This document shows, in pieces, positions 2,320 to 24,808 of a stretch of DNA of 31,976 nucleotides. Numbering within the stretch: position 1 is the first letter of the stretch; each line of letters begins with the position of its first letter. The notes under the pieces are model-generated. The model was given only the letters and a program-made list of their open reading frames with translations, had not been told where the DNA came from and did not search any database. The position numbers and the translations under genes were made by a program. The stretch is from a virus, in the UHGV virus genome UHGV-0322013, one strand, 5' to 3'.

Positions 2320-3255
2320 TCAGTAGTTATGTACTGAAGGAGGTAATTCTTTATTCTTAAGTCTCATCCATGCGGAAAGATTCGTTGGTCCGTCTGGCTC
2401 ATTAATATCAACATCTCGTGTGTGATTGATTAAAACGTCTCTCGCCATTCCGATAACATACGAGAACTCATGACCGTAGTCGTAGCATCTGCCTGAATAG
2501 TTCGATTGAATTTGTTTTAGCGCCGGATACAGTTCGCGGAATAATGCCTGTGAGCGGTTGGCATAATCCCATAACCATACAAGGCTGTTTGCTTCTTTTG
2601 CAGAAAGCTCGTTGGTTTTCTTCTCTTGTTTGCCGATGAACTCGCCTTCGAGCGGAACGCGAGCTGCAAGTGACAGTGCTTCGGCAAACTGCTCCTCACT
2701 GATTTCTTTGTACGAACATCCAAAATGGGATTTCAGTGACGACCACATGGTGATCATCGCCTTAGCCTGTTTTTCTTTTGGCAGAGACTGACCGCGACTC
2801 ATGACGAGTTGTTTAATGGCTTCCTGCTGTTCAGTGGTGATTTTACCAGGCAACGCCTTTTTAGCTTTGCGTGGGTTAACTACATGGCCTTTAGTCCAGT
2901 AGTCATGCAGCACGCTAAAGCATTCCTCCTGGTACTGAATCAGTTTATCACGGATGTCAGCACGAACTTTCTCAGGGTTGATGCTGAACAGCCATCCATT
3001 TAACTTCTTCAAAGGAAGGCAGAGTAGCTTACGAAGCTTCCCATCAGCGGCAACCATGTTCATATGAACACAGTTGAATTTGCTAATCTGCTTCATGAGT
3101 TTTGTTTGCTGCGTTGACCAGCTCATTCCAAGGTTTTCAACGATTGGCTTCATCGCAACATATGCAACTCCGGCAGCCATGGCGGTGATAATTTGCTGAC
3201 CGTTGAATGGTACGTAAGAGGTGTTCACTGCTTCTAAAATTGCTATACTATTCAT
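2320..3255 (-). CDS. ant: Antirepressor Ant (P22 immI type)
   Basis: Track ORF 2320..3321; start placed at internal ATG ([46 protein letters not shown]...) which matches the P22 Ant N-terminus and has a GGAG RBS; 311 aa. Confidence 0.85.
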
Positions 3256-3320
3256 GTTGGTTTTTCTCCACGGATTTACTGACAACCGAAGCCCTGACTG
3301 TTCCCGCAGTTGGGGCTTCA
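3250..3320 (+). ncRNA. Candidate sar-like antisense RNA covering the ant ribosome-binding site (arc-ant intercistronic region)
   Basis: Plus strand has a TATACT -10-like hexamer inside the ant 5' end, then sequence antisense to the ant RBS and a stem (GAAGCCC / GGGCTTC). By analogy to P22 sar; boundaries are approximate. Confidence 0.3.
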
Positions 3321-3323
3321 ACT

Positions 3324-3485
3324 TTACGCGCCAATGCGCCCTTCCTTCTTAAAGCTGTCCATTACTCTCTGATAAATCTCAGAGTTAACAGATCGACCAT
3401 TCTCTTCCGCCACCTTGCGTACCAAATCCAATACTTCTTTAGGCCACCGCAAATTGAACTGCGGCATTTTGCTCATTCCTTTCAT
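3324..3485 (-). CDS. arc: Arc repressor (ribbon-helix-helix)
   Basis: Internal start of track ORF 3324..3548 gives [53 protein letters not shown] (53 aa), near-identical to P22 Arc as recalled. Confidence 0.9.
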
Positions 3486-3575
3486 ATTCACCTCACAATA
3501 TGGGTCCACCGTGGACCTATTGAGAATATAGTAGAGTGCTTCTATCATGTCAATACACTAACTTGGAGTGATGGC
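3486..3575. promoter_or_regulatory. immI divergent promoter/operator region: Mnt operator palindrome (about 3502-3518) and Arc operator (about 3528-3548) overlapping Pant and Pmnt
   Basis: GGGTCCACCGTGGACCT is a perfect palindrome matching the P22 Omnt core; ATAGTAGAGTGCTTCTATCAT is the reverse complement of the 21-bp P22 arc operator as recalled. Confidence 0.75.
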
Positions 3576-3827
3576 ATGGCTAGAGATGATCCGCACTTTA
3601 ACTTCCGTATGCCTATGGAAGTAAGGGAGAAATTAAAATTCAGGGCGGAGGCGAATGGGAGATCAATGAACTCTGAGTTGTTACAAATCGTCCAAGATGC
3701 TCTATCAAAACCATCGCCTGTGACTGGATATCGTGACGATGCAGAACGACTCGCTGATGAACAGTCAGATCTTGTTAAGAAGATGGTGTTTGATACGCTG
3801 AAGGATTTGTACAAAAAACCCACCTGA
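3576..3827 (+). CDS. mnt: Mnt repressor (ribbon-helix-helix; maintenance of lysogeny)
   Basis: Internal ATG of track ORF 3207..3827 gives MARDDPHFNFRMPMEVREKLKFRAEANGRSMNSELLQIVQDALSKPSPVTGYRDDAERLADEQSDLVKKMVFDTLKDLYKKPT (83 aa), matching P22 Mnt; GGAG RBS 8 nt upstream. Confidence 0.9.
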   Translation: MARDDPHFNFRMPMEVREKLKFRAEANGRSMNSELLQIVQDALSKPSPVTGYRDDAERLADEQSDLVKKMVFDTLKDLYKKPT

Positions 3828-3845
3828 AGGTGGGTCCTATTTATT
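3812..3845. terminator. Bidirectional rho-independent terminator between convergent mnt and the lipoprotein gene
   Basis: AAAAAACCCACC-TGAA-GGTGGGT then CCTATTTATT; the mnt stop codon TGA is the hairpin loop; A/T runs on both sides. Confidence 0.6.
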
Positions 3846-4263
3846 AGTCTTGCTTTGTTGATGGTATAAGAGATGCGTTTGCCTCTTTTGGCTTCAAGGT
3901 ATACATTCCACCATTAAATGGATCTACAGCAAGCCAACCAATTAACCCACCAAACACAAGGTTCCCACCAATATACCAACCATTAGCATTGGCTTTGATT
4001 GGCAGGGTAACTGGTTCATACCCATCCTTCTCCATAGTGATCTGGTAGCTCTTTTTGCCAAAATAGCTACCATCTGACTTGGCGAGTGTTACACCTTGTG
4101 GGGTCTTACCTTGCGCAACAATCACACCTGACTCATCTTTTACCTTAAAGCTCGCGCCAGAAGGATTGCTGTTCACTTGCACAAGTTGCGTTTCATCACC
4201 AACAATAGTTGCGCACCCAGATAACATGATAACGCCAGCGACGACGCTAATAATCCTCTTCAT
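3844..4263 (-). CDS. Lipoprotein of unknown function (PEGA-like beta domain, Gly-rich hydrophobic C-terminus); accessory gene in the P22 sieA position
   Basis: Track ORF 3844..4275; likely start at MKRIISVVAGVIMLSGC (signal peptide with lipobox LSGC). The mature part shows a PEGA-like pattern (VQVNSNPSGASFKV...GKTPQGVTLAKSDG...DGYEPVTLPI) and ends GGNLVFGGLIGWLAVDPFNGG. Confidence 0.7.
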   Translation of the reverse strand: MKRIISVVAGVIMLSGCATIVGDETQLVQVNSNPSGASFKVKDESGVIVAQGKTPQGVTLAKSDGSYFGKKSYQITMEKDGYEPVTLPIKANANGWYIGGNLVFGGLIGWLAVDPFNGGMYTLKPKEANASLIPSTKQD

Positions 4264-12268: not shown

Positions 12269-13564
12269 TCACGCAGTCTGGTTAGGCAGACCAACACCAA
12301 TTGCCTCTGGTCGTACAGCACATGCTGAATACCACACAGCAATACGGCACTTACCAGACAGAGTGTTGATATCACCCTGCGTTGCGAAGATGCCGTTAAC
12401 ACCAATACCAGGAATGCTGAAGGAAGACGTTTTCATGCCAGCAAACAGTTCATGGGTTACCGGGATAGGCTGAGACAGCAGACGGATTGAGTCATCAGCC
12501 CAGAACACGTTAGCGGTAGTTGTTGCCACGTTCAGAACGTTTACCGGAGTGGTATCAGCAAGAGAGGTGTTTACGTTAGCGTAAGCCTTCTCTTCTTTTG
12601 TCAGTGACGCGTCATCAAGCGCAATCGGCTTCGGCGTGATTTCGATGTGAGTACCATCGATCACACGGGTGATTGAGAAAGTCGCATCATCAGTCAGCAC
12701 GTTCTTCGCCATCTGAGACAGGAATTTCACACCAGTGAAGCTGATTTTGTCGCCGCGCTTAAATCCGGTGGTGGAGGATACGGTCACCGTTGCAACACGG
12801 TTGTCGACGTTCTCTTTGTTACCATCGGTATCAAGAGTGTATGCCTGCGGCTTAAACTTCTGCGCACCAGAAACAGTTACACCAGTAGCGGTTGACTTGG
12901 TAACTGCCGGAAGTTTCGGTGAGCGAAGAATTTCATCAAAGCCAGCAATCTGACGCTGAATAGTACCGTTGCGATACGCTTCTTCAGGAACGCGCCCGAA
13001 GATGTCACCATCTACCAGGTTGCGGCCTGCTTTGCGGTAATCATCAGGGTTCAGGAAGTAACTGATGCCCATATCGCGGTTTAGCTCACGGGAGAACATC
13101 AGGCGCTCTGCATCAGACACAAAATCCCAGCCAGACAGGCCAGTAGATGGACCAATTGCGCGGGTATCGTGAACAACAAGTGAGCCCATTTCAGTTGCCT
13201 GTTTGGCAATTGCTGACTCAATGTTATTCGCCAGTTTTTTGGCGGATGCCTGGATGCGGCGACGGTAAGAACGCTCATCACGCAGATCATCTGCACGAAG
13301 CTCGAAGAAATCGTTATCCGGATCGCCCATGTTGCATTTCACGGACAGCTCCAGAATCCCGGTTGCGTTGCCAGTTAAATCCCAGCCAGTCTGAGTTGGC
13401 GCTTCCTGCTCAACAGGCATCCACACGGTATTGCTTGAACGTTGCATGGATTCTGCCGGAGGGGTGTATTTTGTCACTTTGGACGCCATTGGCGTCAGGT
13501 TCTGGACGGTTTCGATGATTTCATCGATAGCGTAAGTAACTAACTGCCCTTCTTTGAGAGTCAT
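12269..13564 (-). CDS. Major capsid (coat) protein, P22 gp5-like
   Basis: 431 aa; many blocks match P22 coat as recalled ([55 protein letters not shown]). Confidence 0.95.
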
Positions 13565-13631
13565 ATATTGAATACCTTACTTTCTTTATGTGCTATACTA
13601 TTGTTATATCAACATATAGCGCATTAGGGTT

Positions 13632-14153
13632 ATGAGCATGGAACTGAATGAATACTTCGAATACCGCGATGGTTCTTTGGTTTGGAAAGCCAGAAGCTCT
13701 GAATTTTTCAACAACAAAAAGAATCGCAACTATCACAACGTTTGGAATGCAAAACACGCTGGGAAAGTTGCTGGTCTTTTAGAAAGCAATGGATATATCC
13801 GCATAAGAATTAACGGCATTAAGTGGCTAGCACACCGCATCGTATGGGTAATGTTTAACGGAGATATTCCAGAAGGCATGGAAATTGACCATATAAATGG
13901 GATTCGCCACGACAACAGAATTGAAAATCTTCGTCTTGTGAAAAAATCAGCAAACCAAAGGAATAGAATCAAACTATCTAAAAATAACTCCAGCGGAATA
14001 TCTGGAGTTTACTTTTGCAACACGCGGAAAAGATGGATCGCTCATAAGCGACTGCTTAATGCAAGAGTGCAAAAAGTATGTTCTTCATTCGAAGAGGCGA
14101 AAGAAGTAATCAGAAAGTTTGACGAGGAAAACAACATCACGATATCGAAATAA
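13632..14153 (+). CDS. Free-standing HNH homing endonuclease with AP2-type DNA-binding region
   Basis: 173-aa plus-strand ORF with the HNH core EIDHINGIRHDNRIENLRLV...NQRNR and a following SGISGVYF...KRWIA segment; AT-rich; paralogous to the ORF at 23275..23799. Confidence 0.85.
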   Translation: MSMELNEYFEYRDGSLVWKARSSEFFNNKKNRNYHNVWNAKHAGKVAGLLESNGYIRIRINGIKWLAHRIVWVMFNGDIPEGMEIDHINGIRHDNRIENLRLVKKSANQRNRIKLSKNNSSGISGVYFCNTRKRWIAHKRLLNARVQKVCSSFEEAKEVIRKFDEENNITISK

Positions 14154-22106: not shown

Positions 22107-22730
22107 CTAACGTGTGACCGCATTCAAAATGTTGTCTGCGATTGACTCTTCTTTGTGGCATTGCACCACCAGAGCGTCATACAGCGGCTTAACAGTGCGT
22201 GACCAGGTGGGTTGGGTAAGGTTTGGGATTAGCATCGTTACAGCGCGATATGCGGCGCTTGCTGGCATCCTGGAATAGCCGACGCCTTTGCATCTTCCGC
22301 ACTCTTTCTCGACAACTCTCCCCCACTGCTCTGTTTTGGCAATATCAACCGCACGGCCTGTACCGTGGCAATCTCTGCATCTTGCGCCCGGCGTCGCGGC
22401 ACTACGGCAATAATCCGCATAAGCGAATGTTGCGAGCACTTGCAGTACCTTTGCCTTAGTATTTCCTTCAAGTTTTGCAACGCCACGGTATTTCCCCGAT
22501 ACCTTGTGTGCAAATTGCATCAGATAGTTGATAGCCTTTTGTTTGTCGTTCTGGCTGAGCTCATGCTTACCGCAGAATGCAGCCATTCCGAATCCGGCTT
22601 GTGATTGCGCCATCCCCATAGCAGCCATCACATCAGTACCGGAAAGAGAGTCAGAAGCCGTAGCCCGTGGTGAGTCGCTCATCATCGGGCTTTTTGGCGA
22701 ATGAAATTTAGCTACGCTTTCGAGTCTCAT
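22107..22730 (-). CDS. Q: Late antiterminator Q (lambda Q)
   Basis: 207 aa beginning MRLESVAKFHSPKSPMMSDSPRATASDSLSGTDVMAAMGMAQSQAGFGMAAFCG, essentially identical to lambda Q as recalled; zinc-binding CRDCHGTG...CGRCKGVG. Confidence 0.95.
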   Translation of the reverse strand: MRLESVAKFHSPKSPMMSDSPRATASDSLSGTDVMAAMGMAQSQAGFGMAAFCGKHELSQNDKQKAINYLMQFAHKVSGKYRGVAKLEGNTKAKVLQVLATFAYADYCRSAATPGARCRDCHGTGRAVDIAKTEQWGRVVEKECGRCKGVGYSRMPASAAYRAVTMLIPNLTQPTWSRTVKPLYDALVVQCHKEESIADNILNAVTR

Positions 22731-22915
22731 GGCCTTCCCCTTTTGCCCTGTTTGACCATCAGGACGCCGTTAACTATTACGTGACGCTCGCCTTTGCTGT
22801 CTCGGTTGTACTTGAGCACTGTTCCTCTTGCGCAGGAAAGCATCCTTGCCACTTCGGTCTGATTGCCTCGTGTCTGGATAAGAAGCTCTGGTATCGTTTG
22901 AATTGTGGCGTTCAT
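22727..22915 (-). CDS. ninH: NinH-like protein
   Basis: 62 aa; core KTIPELLIQTRGNQTEVARMLSCARGTVLKY...VNGVLMV resembles lambda NinH; position immediately upstream of Q. Confidence 0.7.
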   Translation of the reverse strand: MNATIQTIPELLIQTRGNQTEVARMLSCARGTVLKYNRDSKGERHVIVNGVLMVKQGKRGRP

Positions 22916-23274
22916 ACGTTCTCCAGTTCGGTGATTTTTATTCCAAGCCGTCCGCCTGGTACTTTCACACCACGAATTACGCGAATGTCATCGAATTGCT
23001 CGTCGTCTTCCGCAAATCCGGCGTGGATAAGGGAGTCGAGTAAACCTTTCAGGATGTTGTCGAGGTCGCGGCGGCGGGAATCTGGAACGTCTGCGATGAC
23101 TTTGATGCGGAGTCGTGATTTGGTGAAAATGTCTAACTTGAGTTGGCGAATGATTTGCTGAACGTCTTTTCGGTATTTCTGGCCTTTATCGCTGATGTAG
23201 TATTGGCTTTCCCGTCTTCGCCAGTAGGTGTTCAGCGACGGTGGGTACGGAAGTGTGAATCTGTATTCTGCCAT
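22912..23274 (-). CDS. rusA: Holliday junction resolvase RusA
   Basis: 120 aa; motifs TLPYPPSLNTYWR and PDSRRRDLDNILKGLLDSL...GGRL match the RusA family. Confidence 0.85.
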   Translation of the reverse strand: MAEYRFTLPYPPSLNTYWRRRESQYYISDKGQKYRKDVQQIIRQLKLDIFTKSRLRIKVIADVPDSRRRDLDNILKGLLDSLIHAGFAEDDEQFDDIRVIRGVKVPGGRLGIKITELENV

Positions 23275-23799
23275 TTATCCTCTCCCATGATTATGGTGAT
23301 ACCCCAATCGTGATTCCGCCAATTTTCTGGCATTAACGGCTAGAGATATGTCATCGTATAATCCAAGAAATATCTTTTTATTATCACTGTTTATATATGC
23401 GCCCCACTTTTTATTCTTCTTATAGTAGGCAACCCCCATTACTCCAGAGCGATTATTAATAGGCTTTTTTCTGTTCCTTGAATTCTGTTTATCATCTACA
23501 ACGCGCAAATTGCATATTCTGTTATCGCTTTTAACTCCATTTATGTGGTCAATTTCCCCATCAGGTTCACTTCCATAAAAGGATATCCATGCGATTCTAT
23601 GAGCTCGACAAACTTTTTTACTTACAGATATACGAACGTATCCTTTTTCATCTATAGAACCAGCAATCTTACCGGCATATGTTGAATTCCAGCACTCTCT
23701 TACACTTTCTCTTCTCTTGTATATAAACAAACCTGTTTCGCTATTATATTCATACAATTCATTGATTTCTTTTTGTGTTGGATATCTTTTACCGTTCAT
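23275..23799 (-). CDS. Free-standing HNH homing endonuclease with AP2-type DNA-binding region (paralog of 13632..14153)
   Basis: 174 aa; HNH core EIDHINGVKSDNRICNLRVV...NSRNR then SGVMGVAYY...KKWGA; AT-rich; start overlaps the ybcO stop (ATGA) and its stop abuts the rusA start. Confidence 0.85.
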   Translation of the reverse strand: MNGKRYPTQKEINELYEYNSETGLFIYKRRESVRECWNSTYAGKIAGSIDEKGYVRISVSKKVCRAHRIAWISFYGSEPDGEIDHINGVKSDNRICNLRVVDDKQNSRNRKKPINNRSGVMGVAYYKKNKKWGAYINSDNKKIFLGLYDDISLAVNARKLAESRLGYHHNHGRG

Positions 23800-24086
23800 G
23801 ACTTAATCTTCCCCTCCTTCAGCAGTATCGCCTGCGTCCTGATCACGCCTTCGAGGTGGTAAAGTCTGGCGTCTTTGTTGTCGAGATTATGGGTGCGTCG
23901 GTCGATTTCATCGTGACACGCGCTACAAGCCCATGCACCGATCAGGTCGTCAGGCTTCATTCCCGTTCCGCAAATTCCGGCCATCCGGTAATGTGCCAGA
24001 ACTGTAGTTTCAGGATTACCATTGCATACGCCGTAAATACGTACCTGGCATTCTCTGTTGCGCGCTTCTTTGCGTAGGTTAGCCAT
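23796..24086 (-). CDS. YbcO-like protein (DUF1364; Cys-rich putative nuclease of lambdoid nin regions)
   Basis: 96 aa, MANLRKEARNRECQVRIYGVCNGNPETTVLAHYRMAGICGTGMKPDDLIGAWACSACHDEIDRRTH resembles DLP12 YbcO as recalled. Confidence 0.6.
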   Translation of the reverse strand: MANLRKEARNRECQVRIYGVCNGNPETTVLAHYRMAGICGTGMKPDDLIGAWACSACHDEIDRRTHNLDNKDARLYHLEGVIRTQAILLKEGKIKS

Positions 24087-24808
24087 TAAGCAGCCTCCCC
24101 TGTTACTTTCAGCATTCCGTTATCGAGCAGCTTTCTGGTCAGCCACTGTTGGCCACGCCCGGTGATTTTTGTGGTGAACGATATCTGTATTCCGTGATTT
24201 GTATTGACCGCTGTTTCTTTCACTGTGAAATAGCCGCGATCCATATATTCCTGCATTGGCACATTGCGCCGGGAACCTGAAGCAATAAGGATTTTGTGAT
24301 CGCGCATCCACGCAAACAGTTTGTTTGGACCAATACCGACAACCTTTGCAAAGTTTCCAATCAAAATTCCGCTGGCTTCGCCAACTCGATCGGCAAACTA
24401 AACTTTAGGTGCGGCAATTGCGAGCTGGTTTTCCAGTTGCATTTTCTGCTCAGCAAGATCAGCAGCAAGGCGCAACGCTTCTGGTAGCGTTTTGGGGATA
24501 TTAACCGCAGCTTCTTCAAGCTCTCGCCAGCGGTCAACAAGGCGAGCGGTGAACTCTGGCGACAACTGGGCAACAACAACAATACTATCTCGCTTACCTT
24601 GTTCGCCTTCGAAGACGTAATGCTCGTACTGAACATTGAACCCTAAGTTGATGATTCTTTCGGAAACCTCAATTTGAGGAAGCCGGATAACACCATTTTT
24701 AGCCAGCGTTTCGATGGTACGTTTCACATTGTCATGACGCTTACTAACCAACTCAGCGATTTCAATGCTTGTCATTTTGATGGCATTGCCATTTATTAAC
24801 TCATTCAT
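24086..24808 (-). pseudogene. Antirepressor-like gene (Rha-type N-terminal domain plus KilAC C-terminal domain) interrupted by a single in-frame TAG at 24398-24400
   Basis: Track ORFs 24398..24808 ([33 protein letters not shown]...) and 24086..24364 are in the same frame (start coordinates differ by 444 nt); I read 11 sense codons between the TAG and the annotated TTG. Confidence 0.65.

What the first reader, a model, noticed from the sequence alone, without database searches (positions are those of the whole stretch)
23275..23799. Second, paralogous HNH-AP2 endonuclease inserted between ybcO and rusA with translational coupling
A 174-aa HNH endonuclease of the same family as the one at 13632..14153 sits in the nin region. 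Its ATG overlaps the ybcO stop (ATGA) and its stop abuts the rusA start, so it is embedded in the operon without disturbing flanking reading frames. Two paralogous free-standing endonucleases in one ~40-kb phage, each at a precise gene junction, suggests ongoing intragenomic or intergenomic homing.
Basis: partly seen in the sequence, partly recalled or inferred. Interest (0 to 1): 0.55.

Follow-up and report, generated by a model that had tools for sequence, protein, structure and literature searches.

The report
Mobile HNH-AP2 endonuclease gene before rusA
A small selfish nuclease gene sits exactly between two conserved genes of a P22-like E. coli phage; about 97% of related phages lack it, and it is an ordinary member of a very common class of phage homing endonuclease genes, with a tidy insertion anatomy.

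Summary
A 174-aa ORF lies at 23275..23799 on the minus strand. Its ATG overlaps the ybcO stop (ATGA) and its TAA abuts the rusA ATG.

The protein has an I-HmuI-like HNH domain followed by an AP2-fold domain. It is 42% identical to the HNH at 13632..14153.

It is a presence/absence insertion:
- All 260 matching phage records, including HK97, HK022 and HK620, lack it, and their junction is exactly 525 bp shorter.
- Only 33 of about 996 E. coli genomes with this junction carry it.

Several features point to a mobile cassette:
- It is AT-rich (35% versus about 50% GC).
- All 24 copies examined are intact, with pN/pS about 0.17.
- It is 4-7 times less diverse than the ybcO and rusA DNA beside it.
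- It occurs in many different prophage mosaics, always at this one site.

The cassette takes over rusA's original start (ATGAACG). It gives rusA a new ribosome-binding site, a new start and a rewritten 21-nt 5' end. That 21-nt patch was found in all 52 insert-bearing sequences checked and in none of the 23 insert-free junctions that search retrieved.

The two HNH genes are old family relatives, not recent paralogues. They have no shared flanking DNA and occur in non-overlapping sets of genomes.

The best reading is a free-standing homing endonuclease gene. Cleavage and homing are untested.

The parts
23275..23799 (-). Free-standing HNH-AP2 endonuclease gene (174 aa), the 525-bp insert
   Evidence: ORF. 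Pfam HNH_3 at 1.1e-16 and phrog_99 at 2e-62. The insert is absent from 260 phage records, whose junction is exactly 525 bp shorter, and present in 33 of 5426 E. coli genomes. GC is 35% against 49-52% in the flanks.
23476..23607 (-). HNH (His-Me finger) catalytic domain, residues 65-108
   Evidence: Pfam HNH_3 covers residues 65-108. H67, D84, H85, D92, N97 and N109 are invariant in a 72-sequence family alignment. The family profile hits I-HmuI 1u3e at E = 1e-7, and 1u3e is the Foldseek top hit.
23305..23448 (-). AP2-fold DNA-binding domain, residues about 118-165
   Evidence: The AlphaFold2 model shows three strands (123-126, 131-138, 141-148) followed by helix 151-165, with mean pLDDT 93.9. 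Foldseek matches the TEM1, WRI1 and ERF1 AP2 domains at rmsd 1.2 A. The family profile hits WRI1 7wq5 at E = 1e-8. Pfam AP2 on the single sequence is below threshold (14.6 versus 33.3 bits).
23796..23799 (-). ATGA overlap of the ybcO stop with the HNH start; in insert-free alleles this is the ybcO stop / rusA start overlap
   Evidence: Sequence. In HK97 the ybcO and rusA CDSs overlap by 4 nt. The first 7 nt of the HNH ORF (ATGAACG) equal the first 7 nt of rusA in empty alleles.
23278..23286 (-). Shine-Dalgarno-like GGGAGAGGA inside the HNH 3' end, serving the relocated rusA start
   Evidence: Sequence upstream of the rusA ATG is ...CATGGGAGAGGATAAATG. Its function is inferred.
23254..23274 (-). 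Rewritten first 21 nt of rusA (ATGGCAGAATACAGATTCACA, MAEYRFT instead of MNEYQFV), linked to the insert
   Evidence: 11 of 21 nt differ from the empty alleles, while the rest of the flanks are 97-98% identical. The patch is present in 33 of 33 insert-bearing E. coli genomes. The 23 insert-free genomes retrieved in the same search match only from query nt 22, directly after the patch. It is also present in 19 of 19 IMG/VR contigs. It shows zero variation among copies up to rusA nt 44.
22912..23274 (-). rusA (Holliday-junction resolvase), the downstream host gene
   Evidence: Pfam RusA.
23796..24086 (-). ybcO (DUF1364 putative nuclease), the upstream host gene
   Evidence: Pfam YbcO at 5.5e-43.
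13632..14153 (+). The other, independent HNH-AP2 gene, antisense between the scaffold and coat genes
   Evidence: Pfam HNH_3. Present in phages Dewey and Louie and in 20 E. coli genomes. Absent from IME10 and others, whose junction is 590 bp shorter. The empty allele has a scaffold/coat TAATG overlap.

Best explanation
This is a free-standing homing endonuclease gene cassette of the phage HNH-AP2 class, lodged at the ybcO/rusA stop-start overlap of the nin region of a P22-like lambdoid phage.

Anatomy (shown):
- The cassette has no promoter-like or terminator-like site in the sense orientation, so it appears to depend on the surrounding transcript.
- It uses the ATGAACG that is the rusA start in insert-free phages, so it keeps the ATGA overlap with ybcO.
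- Its own 3' end carries a ribosome-binding site and a new ATG for rusA.
- The first 21 nt of rusA are rewritten.

Mechanism (inferred):
- The gene is transcribed with the delayed-early nin operon during lytic growth or induction.
- The AP2 domain recognises the insert-free ybcO-rusA junction of a co-replicating relative.
- The I-HmuI-like HNH domain nicks or cuts nearby.
- Recombinational repair from the insert-bearing genome copies the cassette in. The co-conversion tract is short, roughly from the ATG to rusA nt 44.
- The interrupted and rewritten junction in the carrier probably protects it from its own enzyme.
For: Domains:
- Pfam HNH_3 at 60.6 bits.
- The family profile hits the I-HmuI homing endonuclease 1u3e (E = 1e-7) and the AP2 domain of WRI1 (E = 1e-8).
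- The AlphaFold2 model has pLDDT 93.9, with I-HmuI and then AP2 domains as the best folds.
- The catalytic D84, H85 and Asn residues are invariant in the family alignment.

Presence/absence at one exact site:
- 0 of 260 phage records carry the insert, and their junction is 525 bp shorter.
- 33 of about 996 E. coli genomes with the junction carry it.
- 18 IMG/VR contigs carry it.
- No copy of 98% identity or more occurs anywhere else, and the next relatives are 56% identical or less.

Foreign composition: 35% GC against about 50% in the flanks.

The gene is maintained: 24 of 24 copies are intact, with 10 synonymous and 7 non-synonymous segregating sites, giving pN/pS about 0.17.

Spread across older alleles:
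- Nucleotide diversity is 0.74% in the insert, 5.2% in the 300 nt of ybcO and 2.8% in rusA.
- 23 loci hold 20 distinct ybcO and 21 distinct rusA alleles but only 12 distinct inserts.
- Variation resumes at -2 and -12 upstream and at rusA nt 45 downstream.
- Carriers differ in Q, in the gene upstream of ybcO, in replication genes and in terminase type.

The 21-nt rusA patch is linked to the insert in 52 of 52 sequences. None of the 23 insert-free junctions retrieved in that search has it.

No Rfam family matches, so the gene is not intron-borne. No sense-strand promoter or terminator was detected.

Background from the literature:
- Free-standing HNH and GIY-YIG genes in T4 sit between conserved genes, are often promoter-less cassettes, and spread by intronless homing (PMC2988022).
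- HNH-AP2 is a recognised homing endonuclease class in phages (PMC10448857; PMC2248197).
Against: - No cleavage, nicking or inheritance experiment exists. The target site is inferred only from the position of the insert.
- Free-standing endonucleases in T4 often cut hundreds of base pairs away from their own gene, so the junction may not be the cut site.
- The insert is rare, at about 3% of junctions. That fits a weak or recent drive, or simple hitch-hiking.
- Low insert diversity against diverse flanks could also arise if ordinary lambdoid recombination keeps replacing the flanks from the large insert-free pool.
- Most of the rusA patch resembles a natural rusA allele (MNEYRFT...GAGTACAGATTCACG...) found without the insert in another context. 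The patch may therefore be hitch-hiking donor sequence rather than selected immunity.
- Pfam AP2 does not reach threshold on this single sequence.
Confidence: 0.7

Rival explanations
1. Passive cargo. The gene entered this junction once by illegitimate recombination. It has since been shuffled among prophages only by the ordinary homologous recombination that makes lambdoid genomes mosaic. Its nuclease plays no part in its own spread, or cuts elsewhere.
For: - The ybcO-rusA-ninH block is itself a widely shared recombining module, present in about 1000 E. coli genomes at 95-99% identity.
- The insert is rare, at 33 genomes.
- The patch resembles a natural rusA allele.
- There is no direct evidence of cleavage.
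Against: - A neutral or slightly costly insert would be expected to decay. Instead 24 of 24 copies are intact, with pN/pS about 0.17.
- Flank variation resumes within 2-12 nt upstream and 45 nt downstream of a nearly invariant cassette. That needs many very local exchanges exactly at the cassette edges, which break-induced conversion explains more simply.
- The protein belongs to a class known to home.
Confidence: 0.18
2. Domesticated nuclease. The gene serves the phage, for example by cutting competing lambdoid genomes (exclusion), by degrading host DNA, or by working with YbcO and RusA in recombination. It is not primarily a selfish element.
For: - Purifying selection acts on the protein.
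- It lies between two nuclease-type recombination genes.
- There is a weak PADLOC 'HEase' match.
- The literature notes that HNH genes resembling homing endonucleases can be co-opted, as with HK97 gp74 and terminase.
Against: - About 97% of phages with the same module lack it, including all cultured phages in the collection, so it is dispensable.
- It is not next to a terminase or a cos site.
- Exclusion of relatives by cutting their insert-free allele is mechanistically the same as homing.
Confidence: 0.09
3. One reading: the two HNH genes in this phage are paralogues produced by intragenomic copying, or by ongoing homing between the two sites.
For: They belong to the same family (phrog_99) and have the same architecture.
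Against: - The proteins are only 42% identical. DNA similarity is limited to 41-42-nt stretches at 73-79% identity.
- The flanks and empty-site sequences are not similar.
- The genes lie in opposite orientation relative to their host genes.
- The 33 and 20 carrier genomes are disjoint. E. coli 730V1 has the other HNH beside an empty ybcO-rusA junction.
- Phages Dewey and Louie carry only the other one.
Confidence: 0.02

Closest known systems
I-HmuI (Bacillus phage SPO1 HNH homing endonuclease, PDB 1u3e)
   Same: Both have an HNH_3-type His-Me finger with the conserved D-H...N...N motif. 1u3e is the best solved-structure match by profile (E = 1e-7) and by fold.
   Different: I-HmuI is encoded in a group I intron. 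From my own knowledge of the 1u3e structure, it uses NUMOD-type and helix-turn-helix DNA-binding modules. This gene is free-standing with no Rfam hit and has an AP2-fold C-terminal domain. Identity over the aligned part is about 28%.
HNH-AP2 (HNN-AP2) free-standing endonucleases of phages such as Xanthomonas phages Xp10, OP1 and Xop411, and the ICP1 IPA-HNH genes
   Same: Both have an N-terminal HNH/HNN domain with HR(I/L)AW, DH, DNR, NLR and (E/Q)N boxes, followed by a C-terminal AP2 domain. Both are scattered between conserved phage genes and vary between close relatives (PMC2248197; PMC10448857).
   Different: This one is in a temperate P22-like lambdoid phage, at a stop-start overlap in the nin operon. 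Its closest relatives in any database are 56% identical or less. None of these named enzymes has been shown to target a rusA junction.
T4 mob and seg genes (intronless homing, for example mobE between nrdA and nrdB, segG before gene 32)
   Same: Both are promoter-less cassettes placed between conserved genes. Both carry expression signals for the downstream gene inside the endonuclease ORF, and both are variably present among relatives (PMC2988022). T4 segD is antisense between capsid genes, as the other HNH of this window is.
   Different: The T4 enzymes have different DNA-binding domains (zinc finger and others) and lie in a virulent phage. Their cleavage and co-conversion have been shown experimentally, which is not the case here.
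HK97 gp74-type terminase-associated HNH
   Same: It is a small HNH protein in a lambdoid-type coliphage.
   Different: gp74 sits next to terminase and cos, and is conserved and needed for packaging. This gene is in the nin region of a phage with P22-type virion genes and is absent from about 97% of relatives.

Membership tests
HNH / His-Me finger endonuclease (Pfam HNH_3, I-HmuI-like) | Profile match above the curated threshold | tested here: met
   PF13392 scores 60.6 bits against a cut-off of 24.8, over residues 65-108.
HNH / His-Me finger endonuclease (Pfam HNH_3, I-HmuI-like) | Catalytic Asp-His pair and metal-binding Asn residues are conserved | tested here: met
   H67, D84, H85, D92, N97 and N109 are invariant in the 72-sequence alignment and align to the I-HmuI D-H...N motif.
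HNH / His-Me finger endonuclease (Pfam HNH_3, I-HmuI-like) | Beta-beta-alpha-metal fold | tested here: met
   In the AlphaFold2 model (pLDDT 93.9) the elements are strands 82-85 and 98-101 and helix 103-108. The Foldseek top hit is 1u3e at E = 4.6e-4 over 109 columns.
HNH / His-Me finger endonuclease (Pfam HNH_3, I-HmuI-like) | Metal-dependent DNA nicking or cleavage | not testable with these tools
   This needs purified protein.
AP2 DNA-binding domain | Pfam AP2 match above the gathering score | tested here: not met
   PF00847 scores 14.6 bits against 33.3, covering residues 118-142 only. Many homologues at 40-49% identity do carry a precomputed PF00847 hit.
AP2 DNA-binding domain | Three-stranded sheet packed on one helix, similar to solved AP2 domains | tested here: met
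   Strands 123-126, 131-138 and 141-148 are followed by helix 151-165. TEM1, WRI1 and ERF1 match at rmsd 1.2 A over 45-50 residues with probability 1.00. The family profile hits 7wq5 at E = 1e-8.
Free-standing homing endonuclease gene (intronless homing) | Gene present or absent at one exact position between genes conserved among relatives | tested here: met
   The junction is 525 bp shorter in 260 phage records and in about 963 E. coli genomes. The insert is present in 33 genomes and 18 IMG/VR contigs, always at this site.
Free-standing homing endonuclease gene (intronless homing) | Evidence of horizontal movement: an element younger than its flanks, found in different backgrounds | tested here: met
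   Diversity is 0.74% in the insert against 5.2% and 2.8% in the flanks. There are 12 insert alleles on 20-21 flank alleles, and at least 7 different mosaics. Flank replacement by ordinary recombination is not excluded.
Free-standing homing endonuclease gene (intronless homing) | The carrier allele differs from the empty allele at the presumed target, giving self-immunity | tested here: inconclusive
   The junction is split by the insert, and 11 of the first 21 rusA nt differ, in perfect linkage with the insert. The target is unknown, however, and the patch resembles a natural allele.
Free-standing homing endonuclease gene (intronless homing) | Site-specific cleavage of the element-free allele and nuclease-dependent over-transmission in crosses | not testable with these tools
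   This needs in vitro cleavage assays and mixed-infection experiments.
Intron- or intein-encoded homing endonuclease | Embedded in a self-splicing RNA or in-frame in a host protein | tested here: not met
   No Rfam family matches at E <= 1 in 22800..24200. The ORF lies between two complete genes.
Recent intragenomic paralogue of the 13632..14153 HNH | High DNA identity or shared flanks between the two copies, and co-occurrence | tested here: not met
   The proteins are 42% identical. The only nucleotide similarity is in stretches of about 40 nt. The flanks are unrelated. The carrier genome sets are disjoint.

The most novel reading that the evidence does not exclude
The cassette is built to capture a start codon. 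It lands on the stop-start overlap of two coupled genes, takes the downstream gene's start and coupling for itself, and brings a substitute ribosome site, ATG and recoded first codons for the displaced gene. The other HNH-AP2 gene in the same phage does the equivalent at the scaffold/coat TAATG overlap, replacing TGGCATTA with about 598 nt and a new ATGACTCTC start. This could be a general design of HNH-AP2 elements in lambdoid phages: translation-initiation junctions as homing sites, with the recoded codons giving immunity. If so, lambdoid phages would offer a genetically easy system for studying HNH-AP2 homing.
Probability: 0.3. Interest if true: 0.5.

Novelty: new member of a known kind. 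Interest (0 to 1): 0.3.

Why it matters
The gene adds a clean, datable case of a homing-type endonuclease in temperate lambdoid phages. Such elements have mostly been studied in virulent phages such as T4, SPO1, T5 and ICP1.

The insert-free and insert-bearing alleles are both abundant in E. coli, and classic phages such as HK97, HK022 and HK620 carry the empty site. Cleavage specificity, co-conversion and the cost or benefit of the element could therefore be tested directly.

It also shows, at base-pair resolution, how such an element can enter a translationally coupled operon without silencing the downstream gene. It does not change what is known about the class.

Tried and rejected
- A scan of GTDB species representatives for close relatives gave only one 41% relative, in a Kiritimatiellae MAG. 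No donor lineage was found.
- The protein database gave one 90%-identity cluster (145 members, E. coli), and after it nothing above 56% apart from a 96-aa Symbiopectobacterium fragment that is 72% identical over a third of the protein.
- NCBIfam gave no hit.
- Pfam AP2 was below threshold on the single sequence. I relied on the family profile and the fold instead.
- Rfam gave nothing, so an intron was rejected.
- The promoter and terminator scan found nothing in the sense orientation. It found one promoter-like site on the opposite strand, fewer than the shuffled sequences gave.
- I looked for a shared target motif between the two HNH sites and found only chance 7-10-mers.
- I first read the 21-nt rusA patch as purely selected recoding. 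I softened this after finding a natural MNEYRFT rusA allele without the insert.
- For the other HNH, most of its apparent 39-nt coat patch is a natural coat allele found in 8 insert-free genomes. Only the first 9 nt are specific to the cassette.
- Literature searches for an HNH homing element at rusA or in the nin region of lambdoid phages found nothing specific.

Full report
**What is there**

The window is a P22-like temperate phage genome read in reverse. It carries a tailspike with the P22 head-binding domain, an immI region with Mnt and Ant, portal, terminase, lysis genes, Q, the nin region, the O and P replication genes, and a repressor.

At 23275..23799 on the minus strand lies a 174-aa ORF. 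Its ATG overlaps the TGA of ybcO (23796..24086) as ATGA. Its TAA is followed at once by the ATG of rusA (22912..23274). Pfam confirms YbcO, RusA, NinH and Q around it.

**What the protein is**

- Pfam HNH_3 scores 60.6 bits against a cut-off of 24.8, and phrog_99 'HNH endonuclease' scores 2e-62.
- A profile built from 72 homologues hits the SPO1 homing endonuclease I-HmuI (1u3e, E = 1e-7) with positions 40-112. It hits plant AP2 domains (WRI1 at E = 1e-8, TEM1 at 5e-5) with positions 116-165.
- The AlphaFold2 model is confident (pLDDT 93.9, pTM 0.80). It shows a beta-beta-alpha HNH core and a C-terminal three-stranded sheet plus helix.
- Foldseek ranks I-HmuI first, then AP2 domains at rmsd 1.2 A.
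- H67, D84, H85, D92, N97 and N109 are invariant in the family alignment.
- Pfam AP2 on the single sequence is below threshold, at 14.6 against 33.3 bits. The AP2 assignment therefore rests on the family profile and the fold.

HNH-AP2 is a recognised class of free-standing endonucleases in phages (PMC2248197; PMC10448857).

**It is an insertion**

- All 260 phage records that match the flanks lack the gene. In HK97, HK022, HK620, HK140, CUS-3 and others, the matching stretch is exactly 525 bp shorter.
- In HK97, ybcO and rusA overlap by ATGA.
- Among 5426 complete E. coli genomes, about 996 carry this junction and 33 carry the insert.
- IMG/VR adds 18 contigs with copies at 98% identity or more.
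- No copy lies anywhere else. The next relatives in phages, IMG/VR and a 5.8-billion-protein database are 56% identical or less.
- GC content is 35%, against 49-52% in the flanks.

**Base-pair anatomy**

- Empty allele: ...GAAGATTAAGYCATGAACG|AATATCAGTTTGTGCTTCC...
- Filled allele, left end: ...CATGAACG|GTAAAAG...
- Filled allele, right end: ...GGGAGAGGATAAATGGCAG|AATACAGATTCACACTTCC...

The HNH ORF begins with the seven nucleotides that begin rusA in empty alleles, so it keeps the ATGA overlap with ybcO. rusA receives a new ATG, preceded by a Shine-Dalgarno-like GGGAGAGGA inside the HNH 3' end.

The first 21 nt of rusA differ at 11 positions (MNEYQFV becomes MAEYRFT), while the remaining flanks are 97-98% identical. 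This patch is present in all 33 insert-bearing genomes. The 23 insert-free genomes retrieved in the same search match only from nucleotide 22 onward. It is also present in all 19 IMG/VR contigs that contain it, each with the HNH directly upstream where enough sequence was available.

A rare natural rusA allele without the insert reads MNEYRFT (ATGAATGAGTACAGATTCACG). It lies directly after roi, with no ybcO. Much of the patch is therefore probably donor-allele sequence carried along with the cassette, and only codon 2 is clearly specific to the cassette. Whether the patch protects against self-cleavage is an inference.

**Evidence for mobility**

Seven fully examined carriers (the window and six E. 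coli prophages) differ in their Q gene, in the gene upstream of ybcO, in their replication genes and in terminase type.

Across 23 loci with complete flanks:
- Nucleotide diversity is 0.74% in the insert, 0 in the patch, 5.2% in the last 300 nt of ybcO and 2.8% in the rest of rusA.
- There are 20 distinct ybcO alleles and 21 distinct rusA alleles, but only 12 distinct inserts.
- Variable sites resume at -2 and -12 upstream, and at rusA nt 45 downstream.

All 24 full copies are intact. They show 10 synonymous and 7 non-synonymous segregating sites over 104 and 418 sites respectively, giving pN/pS of about 0.17. So the protein is under purifying selection, and the cassette is younger than the alleles it sits in.

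This is the pattern expected for homing with short conversion tracts. Repeated replacement of the flanks by ordinary recombination cannot be excluded from sequence alone.

**Expression**

No sense-strand promoter-like or terminator-like site lies in 22700..24400, and no Rfam family matches. The gene is therefore most likely read from the delayed-early nin transcript and translated by coupling to ybcO. Both steps are inferred. T4 has direct precedents: promoter-less mob and seg cassettes that carry expression signals for the downstream gene (PMC2988022).

**The 'second paralogue' claim**

The 13632..14153 protein is 42% identical (E = 8e-32) and belongs to the same phrog. Against a recent relationship:
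- DNA similarity is limited to stretches of about 40 nt in the HNH motif.
- The flanks share only chance 7-10-mers.
- That gene lies antisense between the scaffold and coat genes.
- It is present in phages Dewey and Louie and in 20 E. coli genomes, and absent from IME10, APC_JM3.2, HZ41 and CurroJimenez.
- None of the 20 genomes is among the 33 that carry the nin-region gene.
- E. coli 730V1 has the capsid-region gene about 10 kb from an empty ybcO-rusA junction.

These are two independent acquisitions from one large family. That family has matches in 3569 phage records. The window's combination of both genes is not seen in any of the 5426 complete genomes.

There is a parallel between the two sites. 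The empty scaffold/coat junction is a TAATG overlap. The cassette there replaces TGGCATTA and supplies a new coat start, ATGACTCTC (MTL instead of MAL). Both elements sit on a stop-start overlap and rewrite the first codons of the downstream gene.

**Verdict**

This is a new member of a known kind: a free-standing HNH-AP2 homing-type endonuclease gene. RefSeq already annotates it as an 'HNH endonuclease signature motif containing protein'.

The presence/absence polymorphism, the low diversity, the single site and the intact ORFs make selfish mobility the best explanation, at confidence about 0.7. The enzyme's target and the homing step remain untested.

Interest is modest. The value lies in the clean anatomy and in an experimentally convenient system, not in a new principle.

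Noticed in passing
window 24398..24400 (minus strand), within 24086..24808: The roi/antirepressor gene carries a premature amber stop (GAG to TAG relative to HK97 roi). It splits the gene into a Rha-like N-terminal ORF (24398..24808) and a KilAC/ANT C-terminal ORF (24086..24364). This is probably a pseudogene or a sequencing error.
   Followed up: partly
window 13556..14153 and 13565..13631: The other HNH-AP2 gene is antisense to the scaffold and coat genes, with a 67-nt spacer before the coat start. Empty alleles (IME10, E. coli ECONIH6) have a scaffold/coat TAATG overlap. The cassette replaces TGGCATTA and supplies a new coat start, ATGACTCTC. Most of the apparent 39-nt coat 'patch' is a natural coat allele also found in 8 insert-free genomes.
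   Followed up: partly
L002 11509..11976; L007 9071..9577; L031 227..794; L006 6231..6743 and 3686..4171; L004 10913..11557: Related E. coli prophages carry other free-standing nuclease genes at other junctions. These are a NUMOD4-HNH between the replication protein and primase, an HNH splitting ninF, an HNH between Q and holin, and GIY-YIG genes near the lysis genes and between cII and the replication gene. P22-like and lambdoid prophages appear to host a whole population of such elements.
   Followed up: no
L001 2045..2335 (HK97 gp66) and window 23796..24086: RefSeq phage records name the conserved YbcO/DUF1364 protein 'HNH endonuclease', whereas E. coli RefSeq calls it 'DUF1364 domain-containing protein'. 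Annotation-based searches for 'HNH' in this region will therefore confuse the conserved ybcO with the mobile insert.
   Followed up: no
L030 1620..1680: A metagenome-derived lambdoid contig has rusA directly after the roi/ANT gene with no ybcO. Its rusA 5' end (MNEYRFT) resembles the cassette-linked patch and may be a relative of the allele in which the cassette first settled.
   Followed up: partly
P0105 (Symbiopectobacterium sp., 96 aa): This is the only protein outside the E. coli cluster with more than 56% identity to the nin-region HNH. It is a 96-aa fragment that is 72% identical over about a third of the query, and could be a decayed copy in another genus.
   Followed up: no
window 3207..3827 (+): The Arc and Mnt domain matches occupy only residues 125-203 of a 206-aa mechanical ORF. 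The real mnt gene probably starts internally. Together with the P22_AR antirepressor at 2320..3321, this marks a P22-type immI region.
   Followed up: no
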